NCBI GenBank assembly: GCA_043228905.1
Contig: JBHGNT010000017.1
Span: 10,602,001-10,666,000, forward strand
Direction of reading: 5' to 3'
Length of the DNA: 64,000 nt
DNA from: Azolla caroliniana
Taxonomy: Eukaryota; Plantae; Polypodiophyta
Positions 799 to 55,753 of this stretch are shown here, piece by piece. A program made the position numbers and the translations under genes. A model generated the notes under the pieces. The model was not told the origin of the DNA and ran no database searches. It saw nothing but the letters and a program-made list of their open reading frames with translations. Within the stretch, counting starts at the first letter, position 1. The number at the start of each line of letters is the position of its first letter.

Positions 799-2276
799 TG
801 TCGCGAAAATACGACGAGGATACGTGAACGTTGAGGCAAGACCCCGGGGCCTTTCTCTAGAGGATATCAAATTCGTGTATTTATGTACTAAGAATTAACC
901 GAAATGAGAAAGATTAACAAATTTCATTAATAAAAGGGAAAGAAAGATTACAATCAATCCCAAGATTGGGATTACAAAAGTTTTATCTTATGGAGATGAT
1001 TAGAATAATAGATTAGAGGAAATAAGAGATTATGATTCTTGAGTGATATGGCTTTGACAATGAATTTTGGATTTTTAGAGATTGCTTCCGTATAGAAATT
1101 ATGGTTTACTTGAGAGATAGCTTCCGTAGGGAAGATTAGGGTTCTTGGCTTCGATAAGATAAGAGAGCTCCCAAAGAAAAGAAAAAAAAAAAATTATAAT
1201 ATGGAGAGTCTTCGTGTAGAAAAAAAAATGGAATAAATATGGAGTTGTCTCTTGATCATAGCCTTTTCACTTTTTGTTGCATGGCCTCTACTTTTAGTTG
1301 CCTAGCTTTTTCTTTTGGTTGCATGTGACTGTCCACATGACCTTTACTTTTTCCATGCACTCCCTTCTTTAGTTGCTTGCGTCCACATGGCCTTTACTTT
1401 AGTTCTCTTCACTTTACTTTAGTTTGTTGCATGATCCAATCTTTCGTCCGTCCGCGTCCAACATCGTCCGGTAGCCGGTTCCATTTTACTTGCCGGTCGG
1501 TTCCGGTTCCGATTTTGCTTGCCGTCCAGTTCCGGTTTGCTTGCCGGTTCCGGTTCCATTTTGCTTGCCGGTCGGTTCCGGTTCCAATTTTGCTTGCCGT
1601 CCAATTCCGATTTGCTTGCCGGTTCCGGTTCCGGTTTTGCTTGCCGGCAGGTTCCGGTTTGCTTGCCGGTTCCGGTTCCAGTTTGCTTGCCGGTTCCGGT
1701 TCCGGTTTTGCTTGCCGGCAAGTTCCGGTTTGCTTGCCGGTTCTGGTTCCGGTTTTGCTTACCGGCCGATTTTCGGTTTGCATACCCGTTCCGGTTCCGG
1801 TTTTGCTTACCGGCCGGTTTCCGGTTTTGCTTGCCAGCCGGTTTGCATACCCGTTCCGGTTCCGGTTTTGCATACCGGCCCATTTCCGGATTGCATACCG
1901 GCCCGTTTCCGGATTTGCTTACCGGCCCGTTTCCGAATTTGCTTGTAGGCCGGTTTCCGGTTTTAGGGAATTTGGCCACCATCATCCATCAAGACAAAGT
2001 GGCCAAAGTGCTCTTAGCACAAATGAAAAATGAGGGAGCTCAAGGTGTTTATATAGCCAGGGCCTTAAATTTCCTATCTATGTGGGATAGTTCTAATTTC
2101 TCTATCTAATCAAACTTCATTTTCTCATAACTTGATATGTATTTCTCCATTTTGTATATAGTAAAATACATTTTGAAGCTCTTGAGTATATCCATCTTTC
2201 TATAGTAAGCTACTAATCTAATCTATAATAATTATTTCATTATTTTTTTACATAGTGTGTGAAGATTCACACGACA
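799..2276 (-). repeat. 3' LTR of Gypsy element (1478 bp)
   Basis: Direct repeat of 8029-9059; contains the expanded CCGG-rich array. Confidence 0.93.
1470..1965. repeat. CCGGTT/TTGCTTGCCGG minisatellite inside LTR
   Basis: Many degenerate copies of TTCCGGTTCCGGTTTTGCTTGCCG; only about 110 bp of it in the partner LTR (8640-8750). Confidence 0.9.
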
Positions 2277-2343
2277 TTCGCCCCCACCAAACCTGCACAT
2301 CGACCGGTATGTGCCAATTTTGGTGAGGATTCATTTTTGTTTA

Positions 2344-5300
2344 CTATACTTTTTTATCGATGCTTAAGACTAAATCGTCAAAAGCTTCGAATCCAATTTC
2401 TATTCTATCTCTTCTCTTGAAGATCTTGATTCTTTTACCGGCAATTAGCAAGGCAAGTGGTGTACCATCCAATTCTACTAAATGATATGTTGCATTATCT
2501 TCCACTTTCTTCACCACATATGGCCCAAACCATCGTTGTGAGAATTTTCGAGCCGTACTATGTTGGTTATCTAGGCTACTGTCATAGACTAGCACCCAAT
2601 CTCCTTCAACGATTTTCCTCGGCCGAAGTCGATGTCGTTTATCGAAGTCTTTCTTGTTCTTTAGCCTTGCATTCTTTAGCCGCGCTTTAGCCACCTCTAC
2701 ATCTTCCAAATTCCGCTCTAATTGTCGAATCCTCAATGCTAGAAGATCTTCTCTACTTATCTCATCTTGCCATGGCAATGCAAACCATGAAATAATACTT
2801 TGTTCTACCGGCATTATTGGCTTTTGTCCGAATATGAGCTCTGTCGGCATGTATCCCATCACTGTGCTATGAGTAGTCCTGTCAGCCCATAATGCAAATG
2901 GCAATAGACGTGGCCATTCTCCTATTTTCCCATGGCAAGCTTTCACTAGAGCCTTCACAATCGGTCCATGTCCACGTTCCACCTTCCCATTTGCTTCCGG
3001 ATTATACGCCATGGTAAGAGATAATTTGATTCCCATCCTCGAGAAGAATTCTCTAGCTTCATTGGCGTCCAACTCGCCTCTATCAGCCACTATCTTGCTA
3101 ACCCATCCATATCTGCAAATAACATCTTCAAGAAGGAATCGGCATACCGATGATGTCTCCTTAGTTCTTAATGCTCGCCCTTCAACTTGATTGGTAAGTT
3201 CCTCTCTCGCGAGCACAAGATACTTCATCTGCCATCATCCCATTGGCATCATCACTATGTCAACCATCCACTTGTAATGCATAGCCAACGGGTAAGTCGG
3301 ATGAAGTCCATCTCGATGGCGAATATTCGAAAACATTTGACATTCCTTACATGTTTCCACATAAGCTAATACATCTTTGTAGATGCCCGGCCACCAATAT
3401 TTCTCCTTAAGCTTCGCAAACGTAGCCCATATTCCTCGATGGCCTGCAAAAACGCTATCATGAAATTCGGACATTAGTTTTTGTTGGTCTTCTAGCTTGC
3501 AGACAACTCTCATCGGAGTCCCATTCTTCTTTTTTGCATGCTTCCAAAGAGCTCCATCCTTAAGGAAATACTTGTATGCTTTCTTCCGAATTCGATGGAA
3601 GTCTTCCGTCGACCATGATTCATCTTTTTGGAGAGAACTCAAGTATTTCCCGATCTCCACGAATTCGCCTTCGTAGTCCTCTTCTATGAAAGTAATCAAC
3701 ACCCGAGCATAGGAACTTGCAAAGAAATCCAGGCCAACATCATCTTCATCAGAATGTCGATCTTCTTCTCCGTCGTATTTCGCTCGTGATAGCATGTCTG
3801 CAACGACATTACGCTTCCCAGCTACATGACGGATCTCCGGGTTGAGTGATTTGATATATGCAATCCAACGCAACATGGCAATAATCGGTGTATTACAACC
3901 AGATATCATACCTAAAATTGGTAGGCAATCTGTCTCAATTATGACTTCTGCTTCTGCTCCAATAAGGTAATCACGATCAGATTTGATTGCCGAGACGATC
4001 CCCCATAGCTCCCTCTTCACTTGGGCATACCTTCTTTGCCTGTCACTTAACAGTTTCGCGCCAAACCGAATTGCATATCGGTTGCAATCTTCATCTTCTT
4101 GGTTGATAACCCATCCAATTCCAATTGGACTAGTATCCACAGTCACGAAAATGGGCTTGCCGTATGAATAGTCCGCTTTCCGTAATGCAGGTGCCTCCAT
4201 CAAAAATTTCTTCAGCCTTCGGATGGCGATTGTATGCTCGCTCGTCCATTCGAACATCCGCTTCTTCTTTAGTAGACCATATAATGGCTCAGCAATGTGG
4301 GCGTAGTGTAGAATCCAAATATGATAAAATGTGCATGCTCCAAGGAACCTTCGAACCTCCGTTTGGGTTACACATTCTTCTTTCATGTCTTGAATTGCAT
4401 TCACCTTGGATGGCGAAGGCTTCCGACCGTATGCTCCACACAAGTGACCTACCACCAAGATCTCCGGTTGCCCGAATGCGGATTTTTCTCCCGAAAATGT
4501 CAAATTCGCATCTTCGAGCCTTTGGAGCACCTTCTCGCAATCTTTCATATGATCCATGACGAACTTTCTACATCCATCCTTATCTTTTGATTCATCCTTC
4601 TCTTCATCCGAACATCCTTTTATTGGAATATCATCTAAGAATGGCATCGTGATATCCGGGATGCAATCCTTCAAGACCTTGTTCATGGCATTCACCATAT
4701 GAGCCACCGAGTTCGTTGCGCCTTGAGGTAAGGTACACATCCGCACCAACCCGATTGGAGTTTTCATGGTTGTAATGTCACGACTGTCGACCGCCAACTG
4801 GAATTGATCGTAGCTAGAGTAAAGATCGCCGATGGAGTAGATGGACCGGCCCGCAAACGCCTCGGCAAATTCATCCACACTCGGACCTATTCCAGCATTC
4901 CAAATTGTCACCTTGTTGACGGGTTGAAGATCTTGAATGAATCGCAACGATCCATTCTTCTTTGGCACCGTGAACCACCTATTAGAATAAGGAGCGTTCG
5001 ACGGTTCTAGAATTCCCATCCTCACCTTCTCCTTTAAGAGCTCGATCAGCTTCGGTAAGTGTGCTCTCGGAACCGGTATCGGTTTCAAATTCCAAGGCAC
5101 ATGCGGCACCATGAAGATCACCATTGGTTCTACCGTCCTTGGATTAGCACACCCGATTTCTTGTGGGAAAAACGCGAAAGCCTTCCCATGTCTTTCAAGC
5201 ATTCCACGAAACATCCGCTCCTTTTCAGGGAGGAGGAAATCCTCCCTTCCAACTCGTAGCTTTCCCTTCGTCTCTTCAGTGAAGATGTGACCAATTTATT

Positions 5301-5804
5301 TGGGTTCCTTAAGCTTGGATCTTTTGCAACTTCCTTCATCTTTTGCCAGCTATCTTCCGGTAGCGGAATTGCAACTGGCTTGATCTTCCTATCCACAGTT
5401 TTATATTTTGTGTTGACTTCGACTTCCTCTATCAAGATGCCTCGATGATATTCATGGATGATAGTATACATGTTGACGGAGTTAACCGAAATCACATGTC
5501 GATGGTGAGGATAGCTCAAATCCACGAGTTCCTCTATTTCACCGATGGTGTCATTAAATGAGGCTTCCTCCAGAATATATGACACGAATTCTTCTTCTTC
5601 GATTATGCTTTCTTCTTTCAGCACCTCCTCGAAGTCTTGTATCTGACACTTTTCCTTCTTGTTGAGTAGTCTAAGTTTGCATGCGCTGCCAGGTGTGACG
5701 CATGTTGCTTCTCCTTGCAATCCACGCACTTTGCTTCCTTGTGGGGACTTATGATTGCTCGGACTATTTGTGCCCCATGCTTCAATAGTCCGCTTCAAAA
5801 ATCC
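2344..5804 (-). pseudogene. Gypsy pol (RT-RNase H-integrase), lightly disabled
   Basis: RT LPQGATNS...FLDD; RNase H VDTS...KRELWG...ETDCLP...VADMLSR; integrase H-H-C-C (H..GHRG..CKEC) and ADRGE..NGKVER. One frameshift near 5295 and an in-frame TGA at 3235-3237. Confidence 0.92.
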
Positions 5805-8011
5805 GAGGATTCGCCTCCAAGGCTATCTCGGTTCCTTTCATGATTAGCTCGAACCGTCAGGAATTGAACGGATCTTTTACTATCAAGACTCTTGACGCGC
5901 GCGAAGGCTGCTCCATTATCGAACACCTTGGTCTCCATCCGGGACGATGTTATATATGGTTGTCCTAGGATGACGGAATGTGAAGCCGAGTCTTGCACGA
6001 AGAAGTGTTGATCAATCTCTACATCCCCGATCGTGACTTTAACGTTGGGGCAAGCTCCATACAAGTCCTCTGTAGCCTTCGTCGCCGCTCGAATCTTCCA
6101 TCCGTGGTTTGTATTAATCGGCCATCTTCCTTTCTTATAGAACTCGGTCGACATGAGGTTGATCTCAGAGCCATGGTCAATCAAAGTGACCATGGTCTCT
6201 TTCTTCTCCCCGATCTTCATCGGTGTCTCCGTTGTCGCTCTTGCCCAATGAGGCCGCGAGTAATGGCTATCCACCACCACTTCTTCTTCCTCCTCCTCTT
6301 CCGATCTTGCCATGGTTATGGCACTTTTTTTGACCTCCTCTTCATCAGATTGTTGTCGCTTCCTCTTAATAAGGTCCACGATAGTATCATGGAACTCCTT
6401 CTTCGCGATCCCAAGTAGCTCTCTCAAGGTAAGGTCGACATGACTATCTAAAACCTTCTCCTCAAGGACCTTCCGCAAGTTAGTTGTTTGTTCTATGTCC
6501 GACCTTAGCTTGTAAGTCGGCGCTGCTCGTTCTTTTCCTTTCTTCGTTGATTCTTCGACTTCCATCCGAGCAGGTTGGCTCGATCCACCGGGATTCATGT
6601 TTGTTTCACCAATCTCTTTTCTTGGGATAGGTTGGGGTGGCCCTTCTTTCCCTCCGTTCCTCGTGTTAGGTCGCTTTGATGTACCATCTTCTTCACCGGT
6701 TCTCTTCCTCTTCTCTTCGACAAGGGCTTCATAGGTGTCACACACAACCTCCACAAAGCTTGTGTTTTCGTCGATTGGATCTGACCATCCGGTTGCTCGT
6801 CGCACGTTTCGGTCAGCAAGTTTTAGATCCTCCGAATTGATTTTGCCTTTTTCTTCGCACTCGAAGACCGTTGGCCAAAACCCAACTCCTGGCTTTATCA
6901 TTTTAAGATTCTCTTTTCCAACTCGTATCCCAGCCGAAGCGGCATAGTGCATAGCCTCCACATGCCTTGCATCTTCTTCTTCTACAATCTTTTTCAGCCC
7001 ACCTCTTCCGAAGTTCACTCGTAGTGGCTTCCGGGTCTCGCTCGAGTGAATCATGTTGCCGTCCAAATAGACAACATTCTTCCGGATCGCATCTTGCAAG
7101 TCAGCACATTCCCTTCGTGAGTGTTCAAAGCTATCGCACCACACACATCTATACGCTTCTTTTCCCTTGGGCCCGCGTCGACCTAAGTTGGCTAGCGATA
7201 CCGCTTCAAACTTCTTGGAGAGCTCTTCGATTATAGACTCCTCCATTGCTTTCTTGTCGAAATTGTTGATTGGCTTACTAGGCTCAATCGTCGTAGGTGC
7301 CTTCTTCCACAATTGTGGATTCTCGACCTCAGCTTCCTCTTGCCATTGTCGCCGCTTATCAAAACGGCTGCAAGCCTTCTTCACCGCCGCCCAGTCTGCT
7401 ACCAAACCATTTGGTTGTGTTTCGTCCTCCATGAAACTACCCAATTCTCGCCGATCTTTCGCATCCATTGCCTTTAGGAATAGTAAGACTTTATCTCCGT
7501 CGAGAACTCGTTGCTCGACACTCGGAAGTTGGTTGTACTTCTGGTCGAATTCGGCATAAATTCCCGATGCACACAGATTCTTCCCTTTCTTCTCGATCCA
7601 ATTCATTAATGTATGCCGAGTCATCCGCGATGCGTCTTCAAGCATGTATTCAGTGAGAAGAGCCCTTTCGAACTCCGCCCAAGTTGCATGCTCGTTTTGG
7701 ATCTCCATCACGCGCTCACGGATCCCGGGTTCTACCACACGCTTAAAGCTTGAAATTTGTTTTGGATCATGGACATCTCTTTGTTGCATCTCATTCCGGT
7801 AGGTAGCAAGGAAATTTGTGATGTTCTTCCCACCGAATCTTCCAACTGTCTCCACAGTTCGGTCAACAGCTTTGTCGACTAAAGCCTCCTGATCTCTCTC
7901 TTTCAGCATGAATTCGACGACGGACACCATGCCTTTCGTCAATTCTTCTCCTTGAGTTCCACTTGTCGAAGCCATCTTCGTACTTGATATCCTCCTACTG
8001 CCTCGTTTCAT
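5795..8011 (-). CDS. Gypsy Gag-protease ORF
   Basis: Open ORF with zinc knuckle CVWCDSFEHSRREC and aspartic protease LIDHGSEINLM...VILGQPY. Start is either the ATG in the PBS (8011) or MASTSG at about 7975. Confidence 0.88.
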   Translation of the reverse strand: MKRGSRRISSTKMASTSGTQGEELTKGMVSVVEFMLKERDQEALVDKAVDRTVETVGRFGGKNITNFLATYRNEMQQRDVHDPKQISSFKRVVEPGIRERVMEIQNEHATWAEFERALLTEYMLEDASRMTRHTLMNWIEKKGKNLCASGIYAEFDQKYNQLPSVEQRVLDGDKVLLFLKAMDAKDRRELGSFMEDETQPNGLVADWAAVKKACSRFDKRRQWQEEAEVENPQLWKKAPTTIEPSKPINNFDKKAMEESIIEELSKKFEAVSLANLGRRGPKGKEAYRCVWCDSFEHSRRECADLQDAIRKNVVYLDGNMIHSSETRKPLRVNFGRGGLKKIVEEEDARHVEAMHYAASAGIRVGKENLKMIKPGVGFWPTVFECEEKGKINSEDLKLADRNVRRATGWSDPIDENTSFVEVVCDTYEALVEEKRKRTGEEDGTSKRPNTRNGGKEGPPQPIPRKEIGETNMNPGGSSQPARMEVEESTKKGKERAAPTYKLRSDIEQTTNLRKVLEEKVLDSHVDLTLRELLGIAKKEFHDTIVDLIKRKRQQSDEEEVKKSAITMARSEEEEEEEVVVDSHYSRPHWARATTETPMKIGEKKETMVTLIDHGSEINLMSTEFYKKGRWPINTNHGWKIRAATKATEDLYGACPNVKVTIGDVEIDQHFFVQDSASHSVILGQPYITSSRMETKVFDNGAAFARVKSLDSKRSVQFLTVRANHERNRDSLGGESSDF

Positions 8012-8024
8012 GTCGGGTTCACCA
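8008..8024 (-). promoter_or_regulatory. Primer binding site complementary to tRNA-Trp
   Basis: TGGTGAACCCGACATGA, 4 nt from the LTR end. Plant tRNA-Trp(CCA) 3' end recalled as ...TTCACGTCGGGTTCACCA (1 mismatch). Confidence 0.8.
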
Positions 8025-8028
8025 AAGA

Positions 8029-9059
8029 TGTCGCGAAAATACGACGAGGATACGTGAACGTTGAGGCGGGACCCCGGGGTCTCCGACCAGAGGATAATCA
8101 CATTTGTGCGTTTATATTTTTAACAATTAATAGAAAGAAGAAATTTAATAATTTTCATTAACAAAGGAAAAAGAAATTACAATATGTCCCAAGATTGGGA
8201 TTTAGAAGTTTTAGGTTTACTAAGATTAATAGAAAAGAAAAATTAGGGGTTTTGAGAGATATGGCTTCCGTAGGGAAGATTAGGGTTTTTGAATGTTATG
8301 GCTTCCGTAGGGAATTTTAGGGTTTATGAGAGTTATGGCTTCCCTAAGATAAGAGAGTTGAGAAGGACAAGAAAATTAAGATAATATGGAAAGTGAGTCC
8401 TAGTGTAGGAAAAAAAATGGAATAAATATGGAGTTCTCCCTTGATCATAGCCTTTCCACTTTTTGTTGCATGGCCTCTACTTTTAGTTGCCTAGCTTTTT
8501 CTTTTGGTTGCATGTGACTGTCCACATGACCTTTACTTTTTCCATGCACTCCAACTTTAGTTGCTTGCGTCCACATGGCCTTTACTTTAGTTTGTTGCAT
8601 GATCCAATCTTTCGTCCGTCCGCGTCCAACCTCGTCCAGTAGCCGGTTCCATTTTGCTTGTCGGCCGGATTCGGTTCCATTTTGCTTGTCGGCCGGATTT
8701 GCTTACCGGCCCGTTTCCGGATTTGCTTACAGGCCCGTTTCCGGTTTTAGGGAATTTGGCCACCATCATCCATCAAGACAAAGTGGCCAAAGTGCTCTTA
8801 GCACAAATGAAAAATGAGGGAGCTCAAGGTGTTTATATAGCCAGGGCCTTAAATTTCCTATCTATGTGGGATAGTTCTAATTTCTCTATCTAATCAAACT
8901 TCATTTTCTTATAACTTGATATGTATTTCTCCATTTTGTATATAGTAAAATACATTTTGAAGCTCTTGAGTATATCCATCTTTCTATAGTAAGCTACTAA
9001 TCTAATCTATAATAATTATTTCATTATTTTTTTACATAGTGTGTGAAGATTCACAGACA
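8029..9059 (-). repeat. 5' LTR of Gypsy element (1031 bp)
   Basis: Direct repeat of 799-2276; adjacent to the PBS. Confidence 0.93.
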
Positions 9060-9250
9060 CCGCTCAAAGCCGCGAAGAAAGACGCAAGCCGAAGCACAGA
9101 CCCCGCAACTACGCACAACGCAAGCTGGAGCATGGATTCCGCAACTCCGCATAAAACAAGTCAACGCGAGTCAACGCGGACACCGGAACGCGAGTCGAAG
9201 TGGATTTCGGATACCGTCTGAAACCAACCCGACTTGAGCTTGAGGGGGCG

Positions 9251-9637
9251 TGTTGAGAATCAAGCTCAACTTGGTCTAGTGTGTGAACTCACCTTGAGAG
9301 TGAATAGACACTCCAACGGTCAAGAGTCACCATGAAGTCACCACTTTGTATTCTAGCATTTAGTATGAGTCATAGAATCATATTCTATGACACATAACTT
9401 ATGAGCTTTCACATTCCCCATGCTCCATGAGTCTTGTAGTTAATGAAGAGAGAGGGTGACTACATAAAGCACCCTCCTCCCACCTTGTATAATGTTGAGT
9501 CTTTCTCCTTTGTCAATATACTTTTACCTTGCGTATTCTCTGTGTTTCACTCACTCACTCTCTCTCTCTCTCTCTTACACACATACATAACTCACATCTC
9601 TTCCGCTTCACAAGAATCCATCTCTTGATTCTTTACA
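9251..9637 (+). repeat. Copia 3' LTR
   Basis: TG directly after the PPT, CA end. Start TGTTGAGnnnCAAGCTCAAC is shared with LTR ends at 45766(-) and 56128(-). Confidence 0.8.
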
Positions 9638-9930
9638 CTATCGTTTATCCTTATCCTTTGCTTACATTAGTACATATCTCTAATAGTTGGTATCCGAGCT
9701 CATGTTCTAATGTTTCTTTTGTTGTCTTTGGTGTTCTTGATTGATGGTGATCGATCGATGTGCAGTCTGCCTTGATTCAGACAACGATCAACAAAGAACT
9801 TCGGTAACTCTTTCCTGTTTTTTTTCTATTTTTTCTTCTCCCATCTAATCATGTATCTGTTCTATATGTAATTTTTTCCATTAATTCAATGATGTTGTAG
9901 TGGTAATTAATTGGTTGTATAAAACGTTTA

Positions 9931-10200
9931 CATCTGTGTATGAGGTCAATACCTCATTTGACATATGTTGAATATGTGATTAATGTCGTATGCACACGAG
10001 GTTAATACCTCAATTGCGTATTACGCTCACATACATATGTTACGTATGCGTATGAGGTCAATATCTCGATTTTGTTGTAAATGATATACGTTTGGTCTCG
10101 TATGTGTAAGAGGTCAATACCTCAATTGCGTATCACGATGAACCCTTATTTTTGGATGTTTTGTGTGTGTAGAGGGTATATGCCTCGATTACGTATCTCG
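9931..10200 (+). repeat. 56-nt-period array of palindromic GAGGTYAATACCTC units in chromovirus 5' leader
   Basis: Core at 9942, 9998, 10054 and 10110, with a degenerate fifth at 10172. Confidence 0.8.
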
Positions 10201-11356
10201 ATTACATCATTTCTGGCTATTTGATGTAAAAATTTGTTTAATGTACACATATGTGGTCACGTGTATACGTATTTGATCGTATATATGTGATAAGTAAACA
10301 TATGTGTATATTTGATATTACGTGATTTCTATCGAATGTTGTCCTTATTGGGAAAAGGATCTTGGTGGCCGTCCTCACATTTCTATGAGAATGGTGTTTT
10401 CACCATCCCTTTTTCAACAATTTTTTGTTGACATCCCCATTGGTCACTTCGATATTTGGTTACGTAATGAAACAATCATAGCGACAATGGTGTTCAGTAC
10501 TTCGGGCTTAACCCATTTCATTTGAGGTCGCTCCTATGACACACATATCCAACATCCCTCCCTCGTTACATGGATACGATGCCACCATGAGATCATTCTT
10601 ACGAAAGGCATTCGTAATGACATAACCATGTGATGGGCCACGTGGGCCTACTATGAAAACAGGGCTCATTTGGCTTGACCATTAGGTTGCATTGGTGTAT
10701 GCCATCGTAATTACGAGACTTGAGGTTAGGTAACGTACCAACAAAGTTTGTGGTAAATGAGGGGGAAATAAGGACTCTTGACATATATGTTTCTTTTAAA
10801 AAAACATATATGGGCAAATGCCTTGCATATCTCTTATACGCATAAAACATTAAACATTCAAAAAGAGCAACCTAATTGGTTAGCTCAAGTGTTTAATGCA
10901 TTTGTTCTCGAGGTCTCGAGTTCAAATATAACCAAGACCATACAACATGGTTGATACATATGACTATAACACATGTTTAGAATTGAGGTCTAAGTGCACT
11001 TCGGGGTCCTCGTAATAGGACTTAAAGAGCCGAAACCACATATGTGGGCACCGAAATTTTTTGTGTATAAACTATTCATGACGCGAACATACATGGTTGA
11101 CCCTCTGGGAGCCACCATGAAAAAAATCGATATAGAGATCAAGGAAAGACATTTATTTGTCACCCCCATGGTTTTTAAAACACCTTTGTGTTACCATAGT
11201 AACCTAATCTTGAACCTCATCTCATACGTCTAGACGGGTATTGACGTGAGATCATGATATCGATTAATGTTTGTCCATGATATGTTTACATCACGACATG
11301 ATGTTATGACTATTTGTCTAACCTTATCCTATTTCTTTGCCAAAAATAATCATTCA

Positions 11357-14300
11357 ATGGCTCAAAATAACAACCCGATGTCATCCGCTCAAGCGGAAGG
11401 AACTCAAGGAAATCCTCCTAGACAAATGTCCATTGAGATGTATTTTTCACAACTAACCCAATACCTTAGTTTCACCACTCAACAGATGACCGAACTTCGG
11501 CAATCTCAAAGTGCTCTCAAGGCATGTGTCATTAGTTCACAACGTGAGACTAATAGACCTGATGAGCGACAGGGTGAACCATCGTTTGTCGTTAAGCCAT
11601 TTACGGGAGAAAAAAAGGAAAGAACCGAAGAAGCAATCTGCACGTGGCTGGGTCGATGGGAGTCTCATTTTGAGCTCTATCCCACACCAGATAGTACGAA
11701 GATTGCATATGTCAGCCGAGAACTAGAGGGTAAGGCCGCCGTTTGATGGCATGGGCTCCGAACATTGGGGAAATTGCCCGATACCTAGACAGATTTTGTC
11801 ACACTTTTTAAGGGCCAATTTCTGCAACCTCCCTCTCGAACTGAGGCAGCACAAGCTTTAATGAACCTCTCTAGCACGAAGTTTTCCTCGCTAGAAGACT
11901 ATGTTCACCATGCTAGAACCCAAATCCAAAAATCGGGTCTAGAAGGGGACAACTAGTTAATAGTTTATTTTGTCAATGGCATCCAATCACTGGATAGTGC
12001 ACGATAAGGATCCAAAATCCTTCGAAGAGGCCAGTGAAATAGTTCTTCGCTATCAATGCACTTCGAAGGACCACAACAAACCGAACGAAGCGCCCGGGAC
12101 TAAGCAGTCGCAATTCGCTGGGAAACGCCAAACACCCAACGAATTCATGGATCGTGATTGTAAGCGACAACATCCTTTTTGTGTATTCTGCAAAAAGAAG
12201 GGTCATACAAAAGAGCAATGTTGAAAGCTCCAACGAAAAGAGCACGACAACAAAGCTAAAGCTACAGACCATAAAGGTCAGATTCCTAATGTCCTTCATG
12301 TCTATACACATCATTTAAGTAATTGTCAATGTTCTTTCCCTCACTATGTATTGGGTCCCAATGATTTACTACGTGCAAACGGGTATATCAAGGGATCTCC
12401 CATACAATTTTTGTTTGATTCGAGAAGCTCACACAACTTTGTGAATGATCGTTTGGTTCAGATATGGGGAATCCAACCCACCGTAAGTGATCACACCTAT
12501 ACGGTGCACTTGGCTGATGGAAGAGTACAATACATCAACAGGGCGATTCATTCATTAGGAATTTCTATTGATACTTATATAGAGGAAGTAGACTTCCATG
12601 TAATGAATCTTTGTACCACTCATGTAATATTGGGTTATCCCTGGTTCTATAATAAAAACTCTTCTTTATCTATTGATTGGGTTCATCATTCAATAACTTT
12701 TGTATTGAACGATTGTACTCATTTTATTAAATGCGTAAAAAAACAATCCCTCTCGATTGTTTCCTCTCCATCAATATCTGAGTTGTTTTGTTTTACTCTA
12801 TTTTATTGTGTACTTGATCCGGACATTCACGTTTACAATATTGATAATGTCTCGGTTCAATTAACATATTTTGAACAACAACAACTTGATGAAATCTTAA
12901 ATGATTTTCATGATATTTTTCAGAGTGAACTACCAGATGGGTTACCTCCTAAATGTAATATAGATCATCATATAGATATTGTACCTTGCGTTGCACCAAT
13001 AAGTATACCTCCTTATTGCTTAAGTCGATCCAAAGAGGATGAGGTATCTAAGCAACTCAAGGACTATTTATGAATGCGTTATATATGTTATAGTGAATCT
13101 CCATGGGGTGCACCAGTTCTCTTGGTTAAAAAGAAAGAGCGCACATGGCGTATGTGTATTAATTACCGACGCTTGAATAAAGTGACGATCAAGAATTCGT
13201 ATCCATTGCCCCGAGTTGATGATCTAATTGACCCTCTCCAAGGAGCTCGGTATTTTACGAAACTTGATCTCCGTACTAGCTACCATCAAATTCGTATAAG
13301 TGAGGACGATGTTCCTAAAACGACATTTCGTACACGATTTCGTGAAGATTTTCAGCAATGGTGTGAAAATTGCATAAAACATACGAAATCGAGTATGAAT
13401 CACATAAAACAATAATAGTGAAGATACTAATTTGAAATAAGTTTAATATGTTGGTACAAAAAGATGGGGGTCTTCAAGAGCTTTCGAATGCACTTTACTA
13501 CATAAGAAACAAACATCTAAGTCTCAAGTTATGTGGGTACGAAGTTTGCAAAAAAAAAGAGAAAAATAAAACTGTGAGATATCCCACAAAAACAGGATAA
13601 ATAATGATCTCACCATATATAAGGTAGAGCAAAAGCTATTATCTTTGTGTCTATGTGTGGAGCATAGAGAGTTCAAGGTGACTTGAACTAAGCTAATTGG
13701 ATGAGTGGGTGTGGCCTAGCTACTTGTAAAGGTCTTGGCCAACCAAAACCGGCAGCAACCGGTGGGGGAACCGGCGACAACAACTAGCAGCGGAGCCGGT
13801 GAACCAGCGGCGGTGACAGACGATATCCGGCGACCGGTGACCGGCATCCGGTGAGGTTTTGGCCAACCAAAACCGGCGGCAACTAGTGGCGAAACCGGTG
13901 ACCAGCATCCGGCAACAGATCCGGTGACGGACAGTGACCAGCATGTGACAACCTCGGGATGCGAACCGAACCGGGCCAAACCAAACAGATGCAAATCAGT
14001 CAGGTCGGTTGATCACGGTGTTTAAAAGATATTTGGTCCAAAAGTCTAATAGTATTTTGTGCTTTAAAAAAGATGTAAGCAAGACTCGAACTTTGCACCT
14101 CCAAGATAGGAAGCAATAGGCTTACCATTAAGCCAAATCATTTCATTAGGGAATATATTTTTATCATTATAGATTTACATGTAAATTCTCATATTAGGGC
14201 TTGATTGAGTGACATATGATGCATGAGCGCGAAATGGCAAACTTGCATCACATGCATTTCATGCATTGTATGCATGTCTTGTACCCTCACATGCATCATA

Positions 14301-16992
14301 TGCATGGGAGCATCTATAAAAGGGTGGATGAAAAAGATAAAAAGGAGCTTTGTACTTTATATCAAAATTAATATTAAGAAGAAAATTCGTTATCCAATTG
14401 ATGTATTAATCTTGTTCGTCAAATCTAAAGTCAAGAGTATCAATCTTAATCTCTCACAATCTAAAGTCAAGCGTTCTCTCTCTCTCTCAATCTATCTTAA
14501 ATCCTTTCTCGCTAAAGCTAGTGCAACTTCGAGTCCTTCCGGTCCAGAACCCTGGCGGTTCCGCCTCACGATCCGTGCGTAGTGACGGATCTTCACGACA
14601 ACGTTGTGGCCATTATGAGTTTTGGGGTATGCCTTTTGGTTTGACCAATTCTCCGACTACATTTCAACAAGAAATGAATGACACTTTTCGAGAACAACTT
14701 GGAAAAATTGACGTTATTTTCTTGGATGATATTGTAGTTTATAGCCGTACATTACAAGAACATGCTAAACATGTCCACTTTGTTTTACAAACATTGCGTA
14801 ACAAACAGTTTTATGCGAAGATCTCAAAATGTGAGTTTTTCAAGAAATCAATTACTTATCTTGGACATCTCATAACCGAACGAGGAGTTGAAATTGATCC
14901 TTCTCGCATCTCATTCCTTGGTTTTGTCGGGTTTTTGTAAAAATCCCTTCGTAATTACTCCCAATTGACGACACCATTTACTAATTTTCTAAAAGGTCAA
15001 ACGCGTAAGTCTACAAAACCTATTGTCTGGAATGCTACACAAGACCTCGCCTTTAAGGAACTCAAGGACCTGGTGTGCAAGGCTCCTTCACTTCTTTTAC
15101 CTGATCCTTCAAAACCTTTTGAGGTTGAAACCGATGCAAGCGATTATGCTATAGGTGTTGTCTTATATCAAGATGGTAAACCAATAGCATTCGAGAGTAA
15201 GAAACTTGATTCTGCTCAATGTCGGTATACCGTTCAAGAAAAGGAGTTATTTGCAGTTATACATGCGCTCAAAACATTGCGCCATGAAATTTATCGAAAT
15301 CGCTTTGTGGTAACTACGGACCACGAGTCCTTGAAATATTTTTGTGACCAACAACACTTGAAAGTTCGTAAGGCACGATGGGTTGATCTCATCCAGGACT
15401 TCGATTTTTCCATACGATATCATAAAGGTTCCATGAACACTGTCGTTGATGCACTAAGTCGCATCCGTGAAGTTAACATGCTTAGCTTCACTAAAATAAC
15501 ATCAGATCTTTATTATCACCTTTGAGGAAAGTATCCTAATGACAGTTATTTTGCAAAATATTGGGCAAGAGTTGAGTCTAGAACAGACACCACTACATCG
15601 TCGAAGGAATACTTCCACATTGCTAATGGTCTACTCTACCATAATGGGAAGGTTTGTGTTCCAGATTTGCCTGAGGTCAAAAAGAGAATTCTCTTTTAAT
15701 GCCATGATGCACCCTCAATAGGGCACCCTGGATTACATCGTACACTCGTTCTAATCTCCACTCAATTCTATTGGCCTAGGATGCGCCTTGACATACATAG
15801 CTATGTGACTAAATGTCACCAATGTTAGGTTAACAAAGTCGAGCGACTTAAAGCCGCAGGAATTTTACATCCCTTGGACATTCCCAATAATAAGTGGGAA
15901 AGTATATCCATGGATTTTATTGTTAGCCTTCCTCGCACCCAAAAAGGCCATGATGCCATCTGGGTTGTGGTTGACAGACTAACTAAAATGGCCTGATTTA
16001 TTGCTACTAAAACCACAGTAACAGCTCCAGAATTGGCTTACCAATTCGTTGACGAGTTATTTCGTTTTTATGGGTTACCGATGGATATCGTGAGTGATCA
16101 AGATCCAAAGTTTACTGGTGACTTTTGGACGCAAGTCTTTAAGAAGTTAGAAACTACATTGACCATGAGCTCCACGGATCATCCTCAATCCGATGGACAA
16201 ACAGAACGAGTAAATCAAATTATTGAGGACATGCTTCGAGCATACATTGGTGCAAAACCAACAAAATGGGAACGTTATCTCCCAATTTTGGAGTTTGCTT
16301 ATAATAGCTCTAAGCATACGTCGATGGGATATAGTCCTTTTATGTTGATGTATGGTTTTCAGCCACGAGCCCTGATTGATGTTAATATACATCATGATGA
16401 GTTGCGAAGTACGCAAAACTTTTTTCAGGATATGCAAGATATGTTGCATATTGCACGAGATAATATAAAAATAGCTCAAGATAGAGCGCGTTTTTATGCC
16501 GATCATCATAGGCAACCTCGTGTATTCAACCTTGGACAAAAGGTATTTTTACGTGTACCTCACAATTCTAAGACATTGTCTAAGGGTAAGTGCGCTAAGT
16601 TAGCCCCACAGTTTTCTGGACCTTTTACAGTCCTCAAATGCATTGGGTCATTAGCCTATCGTCTCGCTCTTCCCGATGGTGTTGAAATTCATCTAGTTTT
16701 TCATGTGAGTTATCTAAAAGAACTTCTAGGTTCTGGTGACAATACAGTTACAACTGAAACTCTGGTTACTTCTGAAGAATTATCTTCTAAACCACATGTA
16801 CCAGAAAGAATTCTCGATGTTGAAAAAAAAAAATTATGTACTAAAGAAATCCAAGAATTTAAAATAAAATGGATGGATAAATTAATAAAAGATGCCACAT
16901 GGGAACGCAAAAATACTCTGAGAACAAACTTCCCTAACTTTCCATTGCAAGAGTTCAATGTTTTAAAGAGGGGGAGTATGTTACAGGCATGA
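11357..16992 (+). pseudogene. Chromovirus gag-pol, fragmented
   Basis: ORF fragments 11267, 11970, 12351, 13074, 14521, 14965 and 16033 in gag-PR-RT-RH-INT-chromo order, with stops and frameshifts. Confidence 0.9.
13338..14600 (+). mobile_element. Gypsy solo LTR inserted in chromovirus RT
   Basis: T(T)TCGTGAAG...TTCACGACA termini; TSD ACGA/ACGT. Removing it plus one 4-bp copy restores RT motif FRTR-(C/Y)GHYEF. Homologous to 21301-22952. Confidence 0.88.
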
Positions 16993-17432
16993 CCATATAA
17001 TGTTCCGTGGTGAGAATTTACCGTAGTATTCTATACACGTGGATAAGTGTGAGGGTTAAACGAGAGTGTAAAGAAGGGGAGGATTACTTTTAATCCTCAG
17101 GATTGAGACAACCCATTAGGCCAAGTGTGAACTTGCCTGGGGGCCTTGGGTATCGCTATAATCAAGAGGCCTCGCTACCCTCATTTTATGATCTTTTGAC
17201 TACGTCGAGACTTTGTTTCTCGGTGGTTCAACTCTTGTAGTGAGCGCGCCAGCACTAGGTACGACTCGATGCCACGGCGGTGGTATGGGACGCCAATCGA
17301 GGGTCGAGTCTGTCTCGATCCCTTCGCTCGGGGGTGGTTGGGTGGATCGGTACCCTTCTTTCTCTCTTTCCTCTCTATCTAGATCTATCGTTTATCCCTA
17401 TCCTTTGCTTACATTAGTACATATCTCTAATA
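16979..17432 (+). repeat. Chromovirus 3' LTR
   Basis: Follows PPT AAGAGGGGGAGTA; homologous to 48008-48464(-). Confidence 0.9.
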
Positions 17433-45766: not shown

Positions 45767-48700
45767 CCACATGAGTGAAAAAGGAATGCACATCTTGCCT
45801 GGCCGACTAGGAACTTCTTCCAGAAATGAAGGAACGCAGAACTGGGCGACATTGCACACAAGACCACCAAGAAGAAGAGAAGCTGTACTGGAACTAGTGC
45901 ACATGGATGTGTGCTATGTAGATGCTCCATTGCATCGAGGTGGACAATACTTTGTAACATTTATCGATGACTACTTAGTCAGAAAGAAAAACTGAGCGAC
46001 ATTCCACACAAGACCACCAAGAAGAAGAGAAGCTGCATTGGAACTAGTGCACATAGATGTGTGCTATGTAGATGCTCCATTGCATCGAGGTGGACAATAC
46101 TTTGTAACGTTTATCGATGGCTATAGTCGGAAGACATGAGCCTTCATACTAAAGTCAAAGGATCAAGTACAATGAATGTTCAAGGAGTTCTAGGCAAGAA
46201 CTGAACGAGAGTCAGGTCGGAAGTTGAAGGCTATCCAAACCAACAATGGTGGCGAATATAAAGGGTAGTTTGAGGAATACTGCAAGGCCTAGGGTATTCA
46301 AATCGAATACATTGTACCAAAGACCCCTAAGTTGAACGGGCTTGCAGAGAGGATGAATTGAACAATCATGGAGAGAATAAGGAGCATGCTCTCTCATGCT
46401 AAACTGCCGAAATCGTATTGGGTTAAGGCGATGTACACAATTGTTTACCTGATCAACAGGTTCCCCTTAATACCATTGAAAGGTGATGTCCCACAAAGTA
46501 CCACTGAAAGGTGGACAGGAAAGGATGTTTCCTACTGACACCTAAGGGTGTTCGGATGCTTAGTGTATATGCATATGGCTAAGGGTCAGAGGTTGACGCT
46601 CGACAACAAGTTGAAACCATGCATATTTATGGTATACTCGGAGGATGACTTCTGCTATAAGCTGTGGGACTTAGTTGATAAGAAAGTAGCGAGGAGTCGG
46701 GATGTAGTCTTCTTGGAAGACAAGACAATAGAGGACTGCAAGCAACAAAAGTCGGAATCGACTTCCCAGTCATCTCCCACTAATACCGATTTAAGACCAA
46801 GTGAACTGACACAGTTGGCTGTTCGGAGACAGCCAGTTGGCACAGCCGAATCCGAATCGGTCGACTCGAAGCAACTGATTAACACAGATGAGTCGGAGTT
46901 GGCAGACCTATTTTAGAAGTCGATCAAGGAATACGGGTAAGAATCAGCTAACCCTCAACGATTGATCAACACATATTAATCCAATCCGAGAGAAGAGTCG
47001 GAAGAGACATCCAAATTGGAGCCGACAACAAGTGGAAGGATACCCACTCAGAGAAAAGAGAGCATTGACTACATATGTCAGTCAATACATCCTCTTGACT
47101 GATGAAGGTGAACCTGAGTGCTATCAAGAAGCCATGGCCAATGAGCACAAGGAGAAATGGCTAAGTGCAATGCAAGATGAGATGGACTCCTTGCATGAGA
47201 ACTACACCTATGACATGGTAGACCTATTGAAAGGTAAGAGAAAACTTAGAAACAAATGGGTCTACAAGGTGCACACCTAGGTACAAAGCCCACATTATGG
47301 TGAAGGGGTTCCAACAGAAAAAGGATGTCAACTTTGACAAAATATTCGCATTAGTCGTGAAGGTAACATCCATCCGAACTATTCTGAACATTGCTGCGAG
47401 CATGAATTTGGAGATAAAATAGTTGGATGTCAAGACAACATTCTTGCATGGGAGCTGGATGAAGAGATCTATATGCAACAGCTTGAAGGCTTTGTAGAGA
47501 AAGGGAAAGAGAACCTGGTGTGTCGACTGAAGAACAACTTGTACGGGTTGAAACAAGCTCCACGCCAATGGTACAAGAATTTCGAGTTCTTCATGGTGGA
47601 ACATAGGTTCCCAAAAACACAGGATGATCATTATGTGTTCGTCAAAAGGTACAATGAAGGTGACTTAATTGTTTTGTTATATGTGGATGACATGTTGATA
47701 GTTGGACAAGACACGAAGAAGATTGTGAGCTTGAAGAAGCATTAGGAAAATCGTTTTCCATGAAAGATCTTGAACCGGTAAAATAGATCTTAGGGATGCA
47801 CATAGTTCAGGACAGAACTATGAAAGTGTTGTGGCCGTCAGAAAAGAAGTACGTGACAAAGATCTTGGAGAGGTTCAGCATGTTAGAAGCAAAGACAGTT
47901 GGCTCCGTGTTGCCGATAAATTGTAAGCTGAAGGCAAAACAATGCTCAAGGAGTGAGAAAGATAGGGTTGAGACGATGAAAGTACCATATGCCTCGGCCA
48001 TCGACAATGTTAGAGCTTAGATCTGATGTAAGCATAAGATAATGATGTATTTGATAGCTAGATAAGAAAGGAGAGAGAGAAGGAAGGGTGTTGATCCACC
48101 CAACCACCCTCGAGTGAAGGGATAGAGACGGACTCGAGCCTCAATCGGTGTCCCATACCACCGTTGTGGCGTCTAGTCGTACCTGGTGCTGGCATGCTCG
48201 CTACAAGAGTTGACCCACCACAATGTCAAAGTCTCGACGTAGTCGATCATGTGTCAAATGAGGGTAGCTAGGCCTCATATTTATAGCCAGACCTAAGGCC
48301 CCCAGGCAAGTTCAAACTTGGCCTAATGGGTTGTCTCAATCCCGAGCATTAAAAGTAATCCTCTTCTTCTTTACACTCTCGTTTAACCCTCACACTTTAT
48401 CCACGTGTATAGAATACTACGGTAAATTCTCACCACGGGATATTCTATGGTCATGCCCATAACATACTCTTGCAATGAAAGTTAGGGAAGTTAGTTTTAA
48501 GAATATTTTCACATTCTCATGTGACATCTTTTATTGACTTATCCATCCATTTAATTTTAAATTCTTGGATTATTTTAGAACACAATTTTTTTGTTTTAAC
48601 ATTGAGAATTCTTTCTGGTACATGTGGTTTAGAAGATAATTCTTCAGAAGTAACCAGAGTTTCAGTTGTCACTGTATTGTCACCAGAACCAAGAAGTTCT

Positions 48701-49765
48701 TTTAGACGACTTACATGAAAAACTTGATGGATTTCAACGCCATCAAGAAGAGCGAGACGATAGGCTGATGAACCAATGCATTTGAGGACTGTAAAAGGTC
48801 CACAAAACCGTGGCGCTAACTTAGCGCACTTACCCATAGAAAATGTCTTAGAATTGTGAGGTACACGTAAAAATACTTGCTGTCCAGGGTTGAATACATG
48901 AGGTTGCCTATTATGATCGGCATAAAAATGCGCTCTATCTTGAGTTGCTTAGATACCTCATCCTCTTCGGATAGACTTAAGAGATAAGGAGGTATACTTA
49001 TTGGTGCCAGACCAGGTACAATATCTATACGATGGTTTGTATTACGTTTAGGAGGTAACCCATATGGTAGTTCACTCGGGAAAAACATCACGAAAATCAT
49101 TTAAGATTTCATTGAGTTGTTGTTGTTCAAAATATGATAATTGACCCGAGACATTATCAATATTATAAACCCGAATGTTCGGATCAAGTACGTGCAATAA
49201 AATAAAGAAGAACAAGACAACTCGGATATTGATGGAGAGGAAATAATGGAAAGAGATTTACACATTGAATAAAATGAGTACAATCGTTCAGTACAAAGGA
49301 AATGGAATGGTGAACCCAATCAATTGATAAAGAAGAGTTTTTATTAAAAAACCAGGGATAGCCCAATATTACATCAGTGGTACAAAGATTCAATACATGG
49401 AAGTCTACTTCCTGTCTATAAGTATCAATAGAAATTCCTAATGAATGAATTGCCCCGTTGATGTATTGTACTCTTCCATCAGCCAAGTGCACCTTATAGG
49501 TGTGATCACTTATGGTGGGTTTGATTCCCCATATCTGAACCAAACGATCATTCACAAAGTTGTGTGAGCTTCCCGAATCAAATAAAAATTGTACGGGTTT
49601 GCACGAAGTAAATCAGTGTCCCAATACATAGTAAGGGAAGGAACTTTTACAATTACTTAAATGATGTGTATAGACCTCAAGGACATCAAGAATCTGACCT
49701 TTATGGTATGCAGCTTTTGTTTTGCTGTCGTGCTCTTTGGAGCTTTCGACATTGCTCTTTTGTTT

Positions 49766-55070: not shown

Positions 55071-55703
55071 TGTTTGACCTTTCTTTTTGAAGAATACGCA
55101 AAAAGGATGTTGTCGCTTACAATCACAATCCATAAATTCGTTGGGTGTTTATGCAAAGCCTAGCGAATTGTAACTGCTTAGTCTTGGGAGCTTCGTTGGG
55201 TTTGTTATGGTCCTTCTTGGAAGTACATTGATAGCGAAGAACTATTTCAATGGCCTCTTCGAAGGATTTGGGATCCATATCGTATACTATTCAGTGATAG
55301 TCCGAATTGGGGATGCCATTGATAAAACAAGATATCAACCAATTGTCCCCTTCTAGACCCGATTTTTGGATTTGGGTTCTAGCATGGTGAACATAGTCTT
55401 CGAGCGAGGAAACCTTCCTGCTAGAGAGGTTGATTAAAGATTGTGCTGCCTCGGTTCGAAATGGAGGTTGTAGAAATTGGCCCTTGAAAACTGTGACAAA
55501 TTCTGTCCAGGTATCGGGCATATTCCCCAAAGTGCGAAGCCCACACCACTAGGCGGCGGCCTTACCCCCTAGTTCTTGGGCGACATATGGAATCCTCATA
55601 CTATCTAGGTTGGGATAGAGCTCAAAATGAGACTCTCATCGGCCCAACCACGTGTAGATTGCTTCTTCGGTTCTTTCATTTTTTTCTCCCGTAAATGTCT
55701 TTA

Positions 55704-55753
55704 TGTAAAAACGAAGGTGCGGAAGCGTTAGACAACCGGCTTAGCCAAATAGC

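What the first reader, a model, noticed from the sequence alone, without database searches (positions are those of the whole stretch)
9931..10200. Regularly spaced hairpin array with variable spacers in a chromovirus leader
Seen: the palindromic core GAGGT-YAAT-ACCTC recurs at 9942, 9998, 10054 and 10110 (exact 56-nt period), with a degenerate copy at 10172. About 34 nt (CGTATGYRYANGAGGTYAATAYCTCRATTGCGTA) are conserved and can extend the stem (TATGCA/TGCGTA), while the intervening ~22 nt differ between units. A neutrally decaying tandem repeat should diverge evenly. Inference: a selected RNA stem-loop array just downstream of the PBS (Gag-binding/packaging signal, processing sites or small-RNA source). 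The architecture is CRISPR-like but no cas genes are present.
Basis: partly seen in the sequence, partly recalled or inferred. Interest (0 to 1): 0.72.

Follow-up and report, generated by a model that had tools for sequence, protein, structure and literature searches.

The report
Selected hairpin array in retrotransposon leader
A high-copy plant jumping gene keeps a row of short palindromes almost unchanged in its RNA leader while the DNA between them drifts, and a sister family repeats a similar loop on a different stem, so the row likely works as RNA hairpins that a protein, possibly the element's own Gag, grips; it is not CRISPR-like.

Summary
The array is real: four GAGGT-YAAT-ACCTC cores at a 56-nt period plus a fifth variant, 254 nt behind the primer site of a dead chromovirus copy. 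The family has hundreds of copies (939 core pairs, control 0). It is not CRISPR-like: spacers are inherited by position and come from duplications of the leader itself (2 to 5 cores per copy). The cores are under purifying selection. In copies sampled by the primer site, private changes per site are equal in stems and spacers (0.45, 0.47), but subfamily-fixed changes are 2/40 against 28/104 (p 0.03; 0.005 against the leader). A sister chromovirus (74% integrase identity) has its own tandem array at the same place, with the same UCAAU/UUACU loop on another stem (post hoc, shuffle P 0.001-0.013). Against an RNA role: no real covariation inside the family, a loop without G, core 3 lost in one large subfamily, and almost no RNA reads. 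Best reading: protein-bound RNA stem-loops (0.5); rival: a double-stranded DNA site array (0.25). Leader repeats are known in other retrotransposons, so this is a new variant of a known kind. The scan's earlier notes held no look-alike.

The parts
9251..9637 (+). LTR of another retrotransposon (TG...CA, purine tract before it), lying where the rest of this element's 5' LTR should be
   Evidence: sequence; family copies stop matching at 9638; 9253-9635 occurs as an insertion in L012; identity as a 3' LTR is inference
9638..9685 (+). 48-nt remnant of the 5' LTR
   Evidence: 47/48 identical to 17385-17432
9688..9699 (+). primer-binding site, tRNA-Met type (type recalled from the known motif)
   Evidence: sequence; same junction in family copies
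9794..9807 (+). conserved small hairpin with a C(UUCG)G loop
   Evidence: among the least divergent 14-nt windows between subfamilies; tetraloop name recalled
9942..9955 (+). core 1
   Evidence: 0 clade-level changes on the tree
9956..9997 (+). spacer X1, paralogue of spacer X3
9998..10011 (+). core 2 (loop TAAT; TACT in the youngest subfamily; CAAT in old ones)
10012..10053 (+). spacer J: junction of the start of spacer Z and the sequence upstream of core 1, marking a 112-nt duplication
   Evidence: 15/19 and 11/14 identical here
10054..10067 (+). core 3; one stem difference in this copy; decayed or deleted in one large subfamily
10068..10109 (+). spacer X3
10110..10123 (+). core 4, inside the longest invariant stretch of the array (about 10101-10130)
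10124..10171 (+). spacer Z
10172..10186 (+). core 5: a different palindrome; its inner pair is C-G, T.G or T-A in different subfamilies and unpaired in this copy
10362..10410 (+). conserved long stem-loop further down the leader
   Evidence: about -27 to -31 kcal/mol in 6 of 7 copies folded
11092..11252 (+). pre-gag block shared with the sister family (78-82% identity)
11357..16992 (+). gag-pol in pieces: zinc-knuckle motif, protease, RT, RNase H, integrase end, chromodomain; broken by stops, frameshifts and an insertion
16965..17432 (+). purine tract and 3' LTR (16979-17432)

Best explanation
The array is a selected cis-element in the 5' leader of a high-copy chromovirus family, built by tandem duplication of the leader itself, and its cores likely fold in the genomic RNA as a row of short stem-loops with a U-Y-A-M-Y apex that would give a protein, most likely the element's own Gag, several copies of one docking site for selecting and packaging the RNA. 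Shown: position, history of duplication, vertical inheritance of spacers, selection on the cores. Predicted: the hairpins. Copy number is flexible (2 to 5) and inner cores are redundant; the first and last are held hardest.
For: Selection: in 45 copies sampled by the primer site, singletons per site are 0.45 (stems), 0.47 (spacers), 0.37-0.42 (leader), but subfamily-fixed changes are 2/40, 28/104 and 158/595 (Fisher p 0.029 and 0.005). Between the halves of the 112-nt duplication 2/20 stem sites diverged against 18/31 spacer sites (p 0.001). On a tree from the flanks alone, first and last cores show 0 clade-level changes at 28 sites against 91 at 166 other sites. Both arms are kept, not one half-site. 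RNA level: all four cores pair with p at least 0.88 in the youngest subfamily's copy and both cores at least 0.96 in two deep two-core copies; core 5 runs through C-G, T.G and T-A at one pair, and the pair outside core 3 through T-A, T.G and C-G; the sister family's 83-nt units carry GCCA-TCAAT-TGGC twice and GCCA-TTACT-TGGC once at the same distance from the primer site, the same two loop variants on another stem, shuffle P 0.0007-0.013; the rest of the leader holds conserved hairpins and one helix with two double changes between the families. Gag-binding sites of Ty1/Ty3 RNA are expected near the 5' end but not precisely defined (PMC4974528, passages).
Against: No convincing covariation inside the family: 0 of 10 and 2 of 15 predicted pairs have a double change, each in one sequence; invariant stems fit a DNA site equally well. 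The pair outside cores 2 and 4 is usually unpaired (C.A 74 of 90; A.A 85 of 104), and the changes outside cores 1 and 3 are transitions that make or lose CG. Folding is not uniform: in 9 of 14 copies at least one core has local pairing under 0.5 in the global fold, cores 3 and 4 in this copy among them. Core 3 is broken in a large young subfamily. The loop has no G, whereas retroviral nucleocapsids mostly bind exposed G (recalled). The sister-family match was found post hoc, the loop closes differently (5 against 4 or 6 nt), and homology of the units is not shown (z 2.3-4.1 for six copies, at most 1.5 for five older ones). The pre-gag block is more widely conserved and could be the main packaging signal. 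The tree test includes copies that were picked by an exact core pattern.
Confidence: 0.5

Rival explanations
1. The cores are double-stranded DNA sites for a dimeric host or element-encoded protein (an enhancer, insulator or anti-silencing array behind the 5' LTR), amplified because more sites give more transcription or less silencing.
For: Perfect dyad with invariant letters and no double changes; spacing held near 56 nt, even across the junction spacer; the letters outside the arms vary as Y and R without regard to pairing; GGTCAA is the reverse of a W-box (recalled). Precedents: palindromic repeated motifs in Sirevirus LTRs (PMC2829016, passages); leader repeats of ZAM that bind HP1a (PMC5408687, passages).
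Against: The sister family keeps the loop and changes the arms, the opposite of what a shared DNA-binding protein predicts; a W-box would not need the ACCTC arm and is lost in core 2 of all young subfamilies; spacing of 55 is fixed in three subfamilies; G.T-type variants that pair only on the + strand are fixed in core 5.
Confidence: 0.25
2. The hairpins act on the RNA but through the host: control of translation across a 1.7-kb leader, splice or polyadenylation control, export, or a source or shield for small RNAs.
For: Same folding and sister-family evidence; each core contains AG-GT like a weak splice donor (sequence; consensus recalled); palindrome regions of maize Sirevirus LTRs form hairpins and are siRNA hotspots (PMC4728375, abstract).
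Against: Stems of 5-7 bp are too short for Dicer substrates (recalled); no Rfam match lies on the array; no splice joints were seen, though reads were too few to tell.
Confidence: 0.15
3. A neutral tandem duplication whose cores look conserved because they lack CG, mutate slowly or are homogenised by template switching.
For: The array gains and loses whole units like any tandem repeat; core 3 decays without visible cost in a large subfamily; 7 of 51 family copies anchored at the primer site lack the array.
Against: Private changes per site are as frequent in stems as in spacers; homogenisation would spread new variants, yet the same 14 letters persist from leaders 72-80% identical to the youngest copies; the seven copies without array are internal deletions or truncations.
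Confidence: 0.08
4. A CRISPR-like memory array whose spacers are acquired from other DNA and guide small RNAs.
For: Only the look: short palindromes at a fixed period with unlike spacers.
Against: Spacers are the same by position in the 30 nearest copies, change by point substitution along the tree and trace to the leader itself; no new spacer type was seen among 128 arrays beyond X, J, Z and decayed forms.
Confidence: 0.01

Closest known systems
Sirevirus repeated motifs and palindrome region (Ty1/copia; PMC2829016 passages; PMC4728375 abstract and outline)
   Same: Repeated short palindromes in a non-coding part of a plant LTR retrotransposon, able to form hairpins, proposed as cis-regulatory.
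   Different: They lie inside the LTR upstream of the TATA box or before env, have a CGG-CCG core, form CpG islands and evolve fast; here the cores lie behind the primer site, lack CG, are evenly spaced and are the slowest-changing part.
5'-UTR tandem repeats of Drosophila ZAM (2.3 x 307 bp) and Tirant (2-6 x 102 bp) (Ty3/gypsy; PMC5408687 passages)
   Same: Variable number of tandem units in the leader of a gypsy element; a protein-binding role reported for ZAM.
   Different: Longer units, described as whole repeats that bind a chromatin protein; no frozen palindromic core with drifting spacers in the passages read.
Packaging signals of Ty1/Ty3 and retroviruses (PMC4974528 passages; retroviral psi recalled)
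   Same: Place (5' end, behind the primer site), stem-loop form, redundancy; the element's Gag has a zinc-knuckle motif.
   Different: Not built as a tandem array of one hairpin; retroviral loops usually expose G (recalled); binding untested here.
Plant chromoviruses (REXdb clades; PMC6317226 passages)
   Same: Domain order PR-RT-RH-INT-chromodomain and a tRNA-Met primer site.
   Different: Clade not assigned here; the primer site argues against self-priming Tcn1; best named protein relatives are only 41-43% identical.
CRISPR arrays (recalled)
   Same: Fixed period, palindromic repeat, unlike spacers.
   Different: Spacers are inherited paralogues of the leader, not acquired; no cas gene among the ten frames scanned.

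Membership tests
Chromovirus (Ty3/gypsy) | PR-RT-RH-INT order with a C-terminal chromodomain | tested here: met
   Pfam PF13975, PF00078, PF17917, PF24626, PF00385 in that order (chromodomain at the cut-off, 25.1 bits); integrase core seen in 74-75% identical relatives
Chromovirus (Ty3/gypsy) | LTRs, primer site and purine tract | tested here: met
Chromovirus clade (Galadriel, Tcn1, Reina, Tekay, CRM, Chlamyvir) | placement in an RT-RH-INT tree with reference elements | not tested
   no reference sequences fetched
CRISPR array | spacers unique and acquired from foreign DNA | tested here: not met
CRISPR array | spacer content differs among related copies at one end | tested here: not met
   same X, J, Z types by position in 74 of 128 arrays; the rest are gains, losses or decayed units
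CRISPR array | cas genes nearby | tested here: inconclusive
   10 of the window's frames scanned, all retrotransposon or no match; the others not scanned
Retroelement packaging signal | 5' position behind the primer site | tested here: met
   203-279 nt behind it in the 44 anchored copies
Retroelement packaging signal | conserved RNA stem-loops with covariation | tested here: inconclusive
   folding predicted; covariation absent within the family, suggestive across families
Retroelement packaging signal | bound by Gag and needed for encapsidation | not testable with these tools
   needs binding and packaging assays
Sirevirus-type repeated motif | in the LTR upstream of the promoter, CGG-CCG core | tested here: not met
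   outside the LTR, core GAGGT/ACCTC
Known RNA family (Rfam) | match at the gathering score | tested here: not met
   no match on the array; five weak miRNA-type matches at 10235-10319, far below their cut-offs

The most novel reading that the evidence does not exclude
Chromoviruses of this clade carry a modular, multivalent packaging signal: a hairpin whose U-Y-A-M-Y loop is the code and whose stem is free, amplified independently by tandem duplication in each family's leader. It would be a defined Gag-binding motif for a plant Ty3/gypsy element, which our searches did not find in print, and a case of a selfish RNA raising its avidity for its own capsid by copying its docking site.
Probability: 0.25. 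Interest if true: 0.65.

Novelty: new variant of a known kind. Interest (0 to 1): 0.42.

Why it matters
The sequences by which LTR retrotransposon RNA is chosen for packaging are not precisely defined even for yeast Ty1 and Ty3 (PMC4974528, passages). Here a 14-nt motif is singled out by selection across a whole family history and has a counterpart in a sister family, so it gives a short, concrete candidate that binding and probing assays can test. If it is a DNA site instead, it points to a host or element protein that hundreds of copies depend on. It also shows how a CRISPR-like look arises from tandem duplication plus selection on a small core.

Tried and rejected
Expression: no RNA holder was listed for the leader. 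Three poly(A) runs of the same species label, about 12% of each read, gave 97-136 reads on a young copy, nearly all on the LTR and mostly 90-95% alike, with depth 0-0.23 over the array; 11-15 reads on the sister family. No joints or ends can be read from this. A degenerate pattern for old subfamilies found nothing; a DNA search with an old copy worked. The viral collection held no relative of the sister polyprotein. The family of P0001 is not in this genome (best 68%), so its leader could not be read. The sister family is one young burst (99 of 100 listed matches share the stems), so it gives no covariation of its own. Homology of the sister's unit to the last module here: inconclusive. Identity with moss RLG1 was considered (PMC7466625, passages) and not tested; host and clade are left open. 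Bacterial arrays with the same 14-mer were set aside as convergent: no similarity to the element beyond the motif. A W-box reading was rejected because both arms are kept. Subfamily groups were first drawn by eye from an alignment that included the array; the flank-only tree recovered A, B and C with support 99-100 but not D, E, F as clades. Literature searches showed no description of this array; the library lacks most subscription papers, and no supplements were read.

Full report
Observation. The four cores lie at 9942, 9998, 10054 and 10110, 56 nt apart, with a fifth palindrome at 10172. Nothing else in the window matches with under 2 mismatches. The genome holds 939 exact core-N42-core pairs and 2249 exact cores; the reversed patterns give 0 and 2.

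Context. The array starts 254 nt behind a primer site at 9688. Downstream lie pieces of gag, protease, RT, RNase H, integrase end and chromodomain, a purine tract and a 454-nt 3' LTR. Only 48 nt of the 5' LTR remain next to another element's LTR. This copy is dead. The host was not identified; earlier notes on this genome suggest a fern (not tested).

Spacers. In the 30 nearest copies fetched (of 40 scored, 1362 candidates) spacers align as well as cores, and 29 of 30 keep 56/56/56. Among 128 distinct arrays from this genome and from 15 metagenome contigs of the family, three spacer types recur, X, J and Z; 74 have the order X-J-X-Z and the others have gained, lost or decayed units, with 2 to 5 cores. 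J is the start of Z joined to the sequence before core 1 (14-16 of 19 and 8-12 of 14 identical in 7 of 7 copies checked), and the two X spacers are 31-34 of 41-42 identical in five old copies but 20/42 and 24/41 in two young ones. The four-core form is therefore best read as a 112-nt duplication of a two-core array, whose spacers then drifted apart. This removes the CRISPR reading.

Selection. To avoid choosing copies by their cores I anchored on the LTR-primer junction: 884 hits, 100 listed, 70 fetched (the first 30, then 40 picked by junction letters to skip a copia family). Of the 70, 44 carry the family leader with the array, 7 are family copies with the leader deleted or cut, 19 are other families. 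In the 44 plus this copy, singletons per site are 0.45 in stems, 0.47 in spacers and 0.37-0.42 in the leader, so the cores are no mutational cold spot. Subfamily-fixed changes are 2 at 40 stem sites (both in core 3 of one subfamily), 3 at 16 loop sites, 28 at 104 spacer sites and 158 at 595 leader sites; Fisher p is 0.029 and 0.005. Between the duplicated halves, 2/20 stem sites, 4/8 loop sites and 18/31 spacer sites diverged (p 0.001 for stems). On a tree of 106 copies built from flanks alone, first and last cores show no clade-level change at 28 sites against 91 at 166 others (95 and 97 rows used); this set includes copies found by a core pattern, so it overstates the contrast. Core 3 is dispensable: it is broken or deleted in a large young subfamily. 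Other leader stretches are conserved as strongly as cores 1 and 4.

RNA or DNA. The region folds better than shuffles (z -2.9). In the youngest subfamily's copy all four cores pair with p at least 0.88, but in 9 of 14 copies at least one core falls under 0.5 in the global fold. Alignments of 34 and 32 representatives show no real covariation: the stems simply do not change. Weak hints point to the + strand: core 5 has C-G, T.G or T-A at its inner pair, and the pair outside core 3 is T-A 15, T.G 64, C-G 9 of 91; outside core 1 it is T-A 73, C-G 26, C.A 8 of 113; outside cores 2 and 4 it is mostly unpaired. These are few events and CG-related transitions. The stronger hint comes from a sister chromovirus, found through a 74% identical protein and present here as a young burst (150 of 150 scored hits at least 97% identical). 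Its leader shares only a 165-nt pre-gag block with ours, yet 226-684 nt behind its primer site it has tandem arrays of 118 nt x 2 and 83 nt x 3. Each 83-nt unit holds a hairpin GCCA-loop-TGGC with loops TCAAT, TCAAT and TTACT, the same variants as in our cores, and in each 1.7-kb leader the only such hairpins are those of the arrays. Shuffles give such a hairpin with P 0.0007-0.013, and 0 of 16 leaders of other families have one. The test is post hoc, the loop closes one base differently, and homology of the units is not shown. The leader as a whole looks like structured RNA: a conserved C(UUCG)G hairpin, a long stem at 10362-10410, and a helix in the pre-gag block with two double changes between the families.

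Expression could not be judged: reads over the array are near zero in three poly(A) runs.

Mechanism. I commit to protein-bound RNA stem-loops, most likely for Gag-driven selection of the genomic RNA (0.5). Shown: the array's history and the selection. Predicted: the hairpins. A double-stranded DNA site array (0.25), a host RNA role (0.15), neutrality (0.08) and a CRISPR-like role (0.01) follow.

Known parallels. Repeated palindromes in Sirevirus LTRs (PMC2829016, passages; PMC4728375, abstract and outline) and tandem repeats in the leaders of ZAM and Tirant (PMC5408687, passages) show that repeat arrays in retrotransposon cis-regions are a known kind. Packaging sequences of Ty1 and Ty3 are not precisely defined (PMC4974528, passages). 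Eight searches showed no account of this array; Rfam has no match; earlier notes of the scan hold no look-alike.

Verdict. Real, selected, not CRISPR-like; a new variant of a known kind with a testable motif. Interest 0.42.

Noticed in passing
window 11092-11252; L314 (sister family): A 165-nt non-coding block before gag is 78-82% identical between the two families although the rest of their leaders does not align; a helix at about 11136-11143 with 11203-11210 shows two double changes between the families. Candidate main packaging, dimerisation or translation element.
   Followed up: partly
L314:1549-2007 (G000:C1 near 30865000): The sister chromovirus, a young burst with many intact 1479-codon frames, has two hairpin-rich tandem arrays in its leader (118 nt x 2, 83 nt x 3); differences between the 118-nt units often leave G.T pairs.
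   Followed up: partly
L132, L134-L138, L171, L198, L207, L229 and others: Bacterial intergenic arrays use nearly the same 14-nt palindrome at a 52-56 nt period with hairpin-forming spacers, one type recurring in gut metagenomes between convergent genes, another between proC-like and thrC-like genes (gene names from recall of the translations). They look like REP-type repeats and seem convergent.
   Followed up: partly
L281-L283 (G000:C1:9620168 and 224 other places): Another repeat family in this genome has a palindrome CTCCA-ATGG-TGGAG in a 52/53/62-nt tandem array; no primer site was found nearby and the element was not identified.
   Followed up: partly
window 48010-55718, minus strand: A second copy of the same family (85-87% identical), without leader or array in the window, is split by a copia element with identical LTRs and an intact 1374-codon frame at 50340-54464.
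   Followed up: no
window 9683-9685 and family junctions: Most copies end the LTR in TA rather than the usual CA before the primer site.
   Followed up: no
window 10241-10311: An AT-rich conserved hairpin region behind the array gives weak miRNA-family scores far below cut-off and is among the least divergent leader stretches.
   Followed up: no
window 1268-9060, minus strand: A separate gypsy element with a DUF4100 gag region and LTRs rich in CCGGTT repeats lies just upstream.
   Followed up: no
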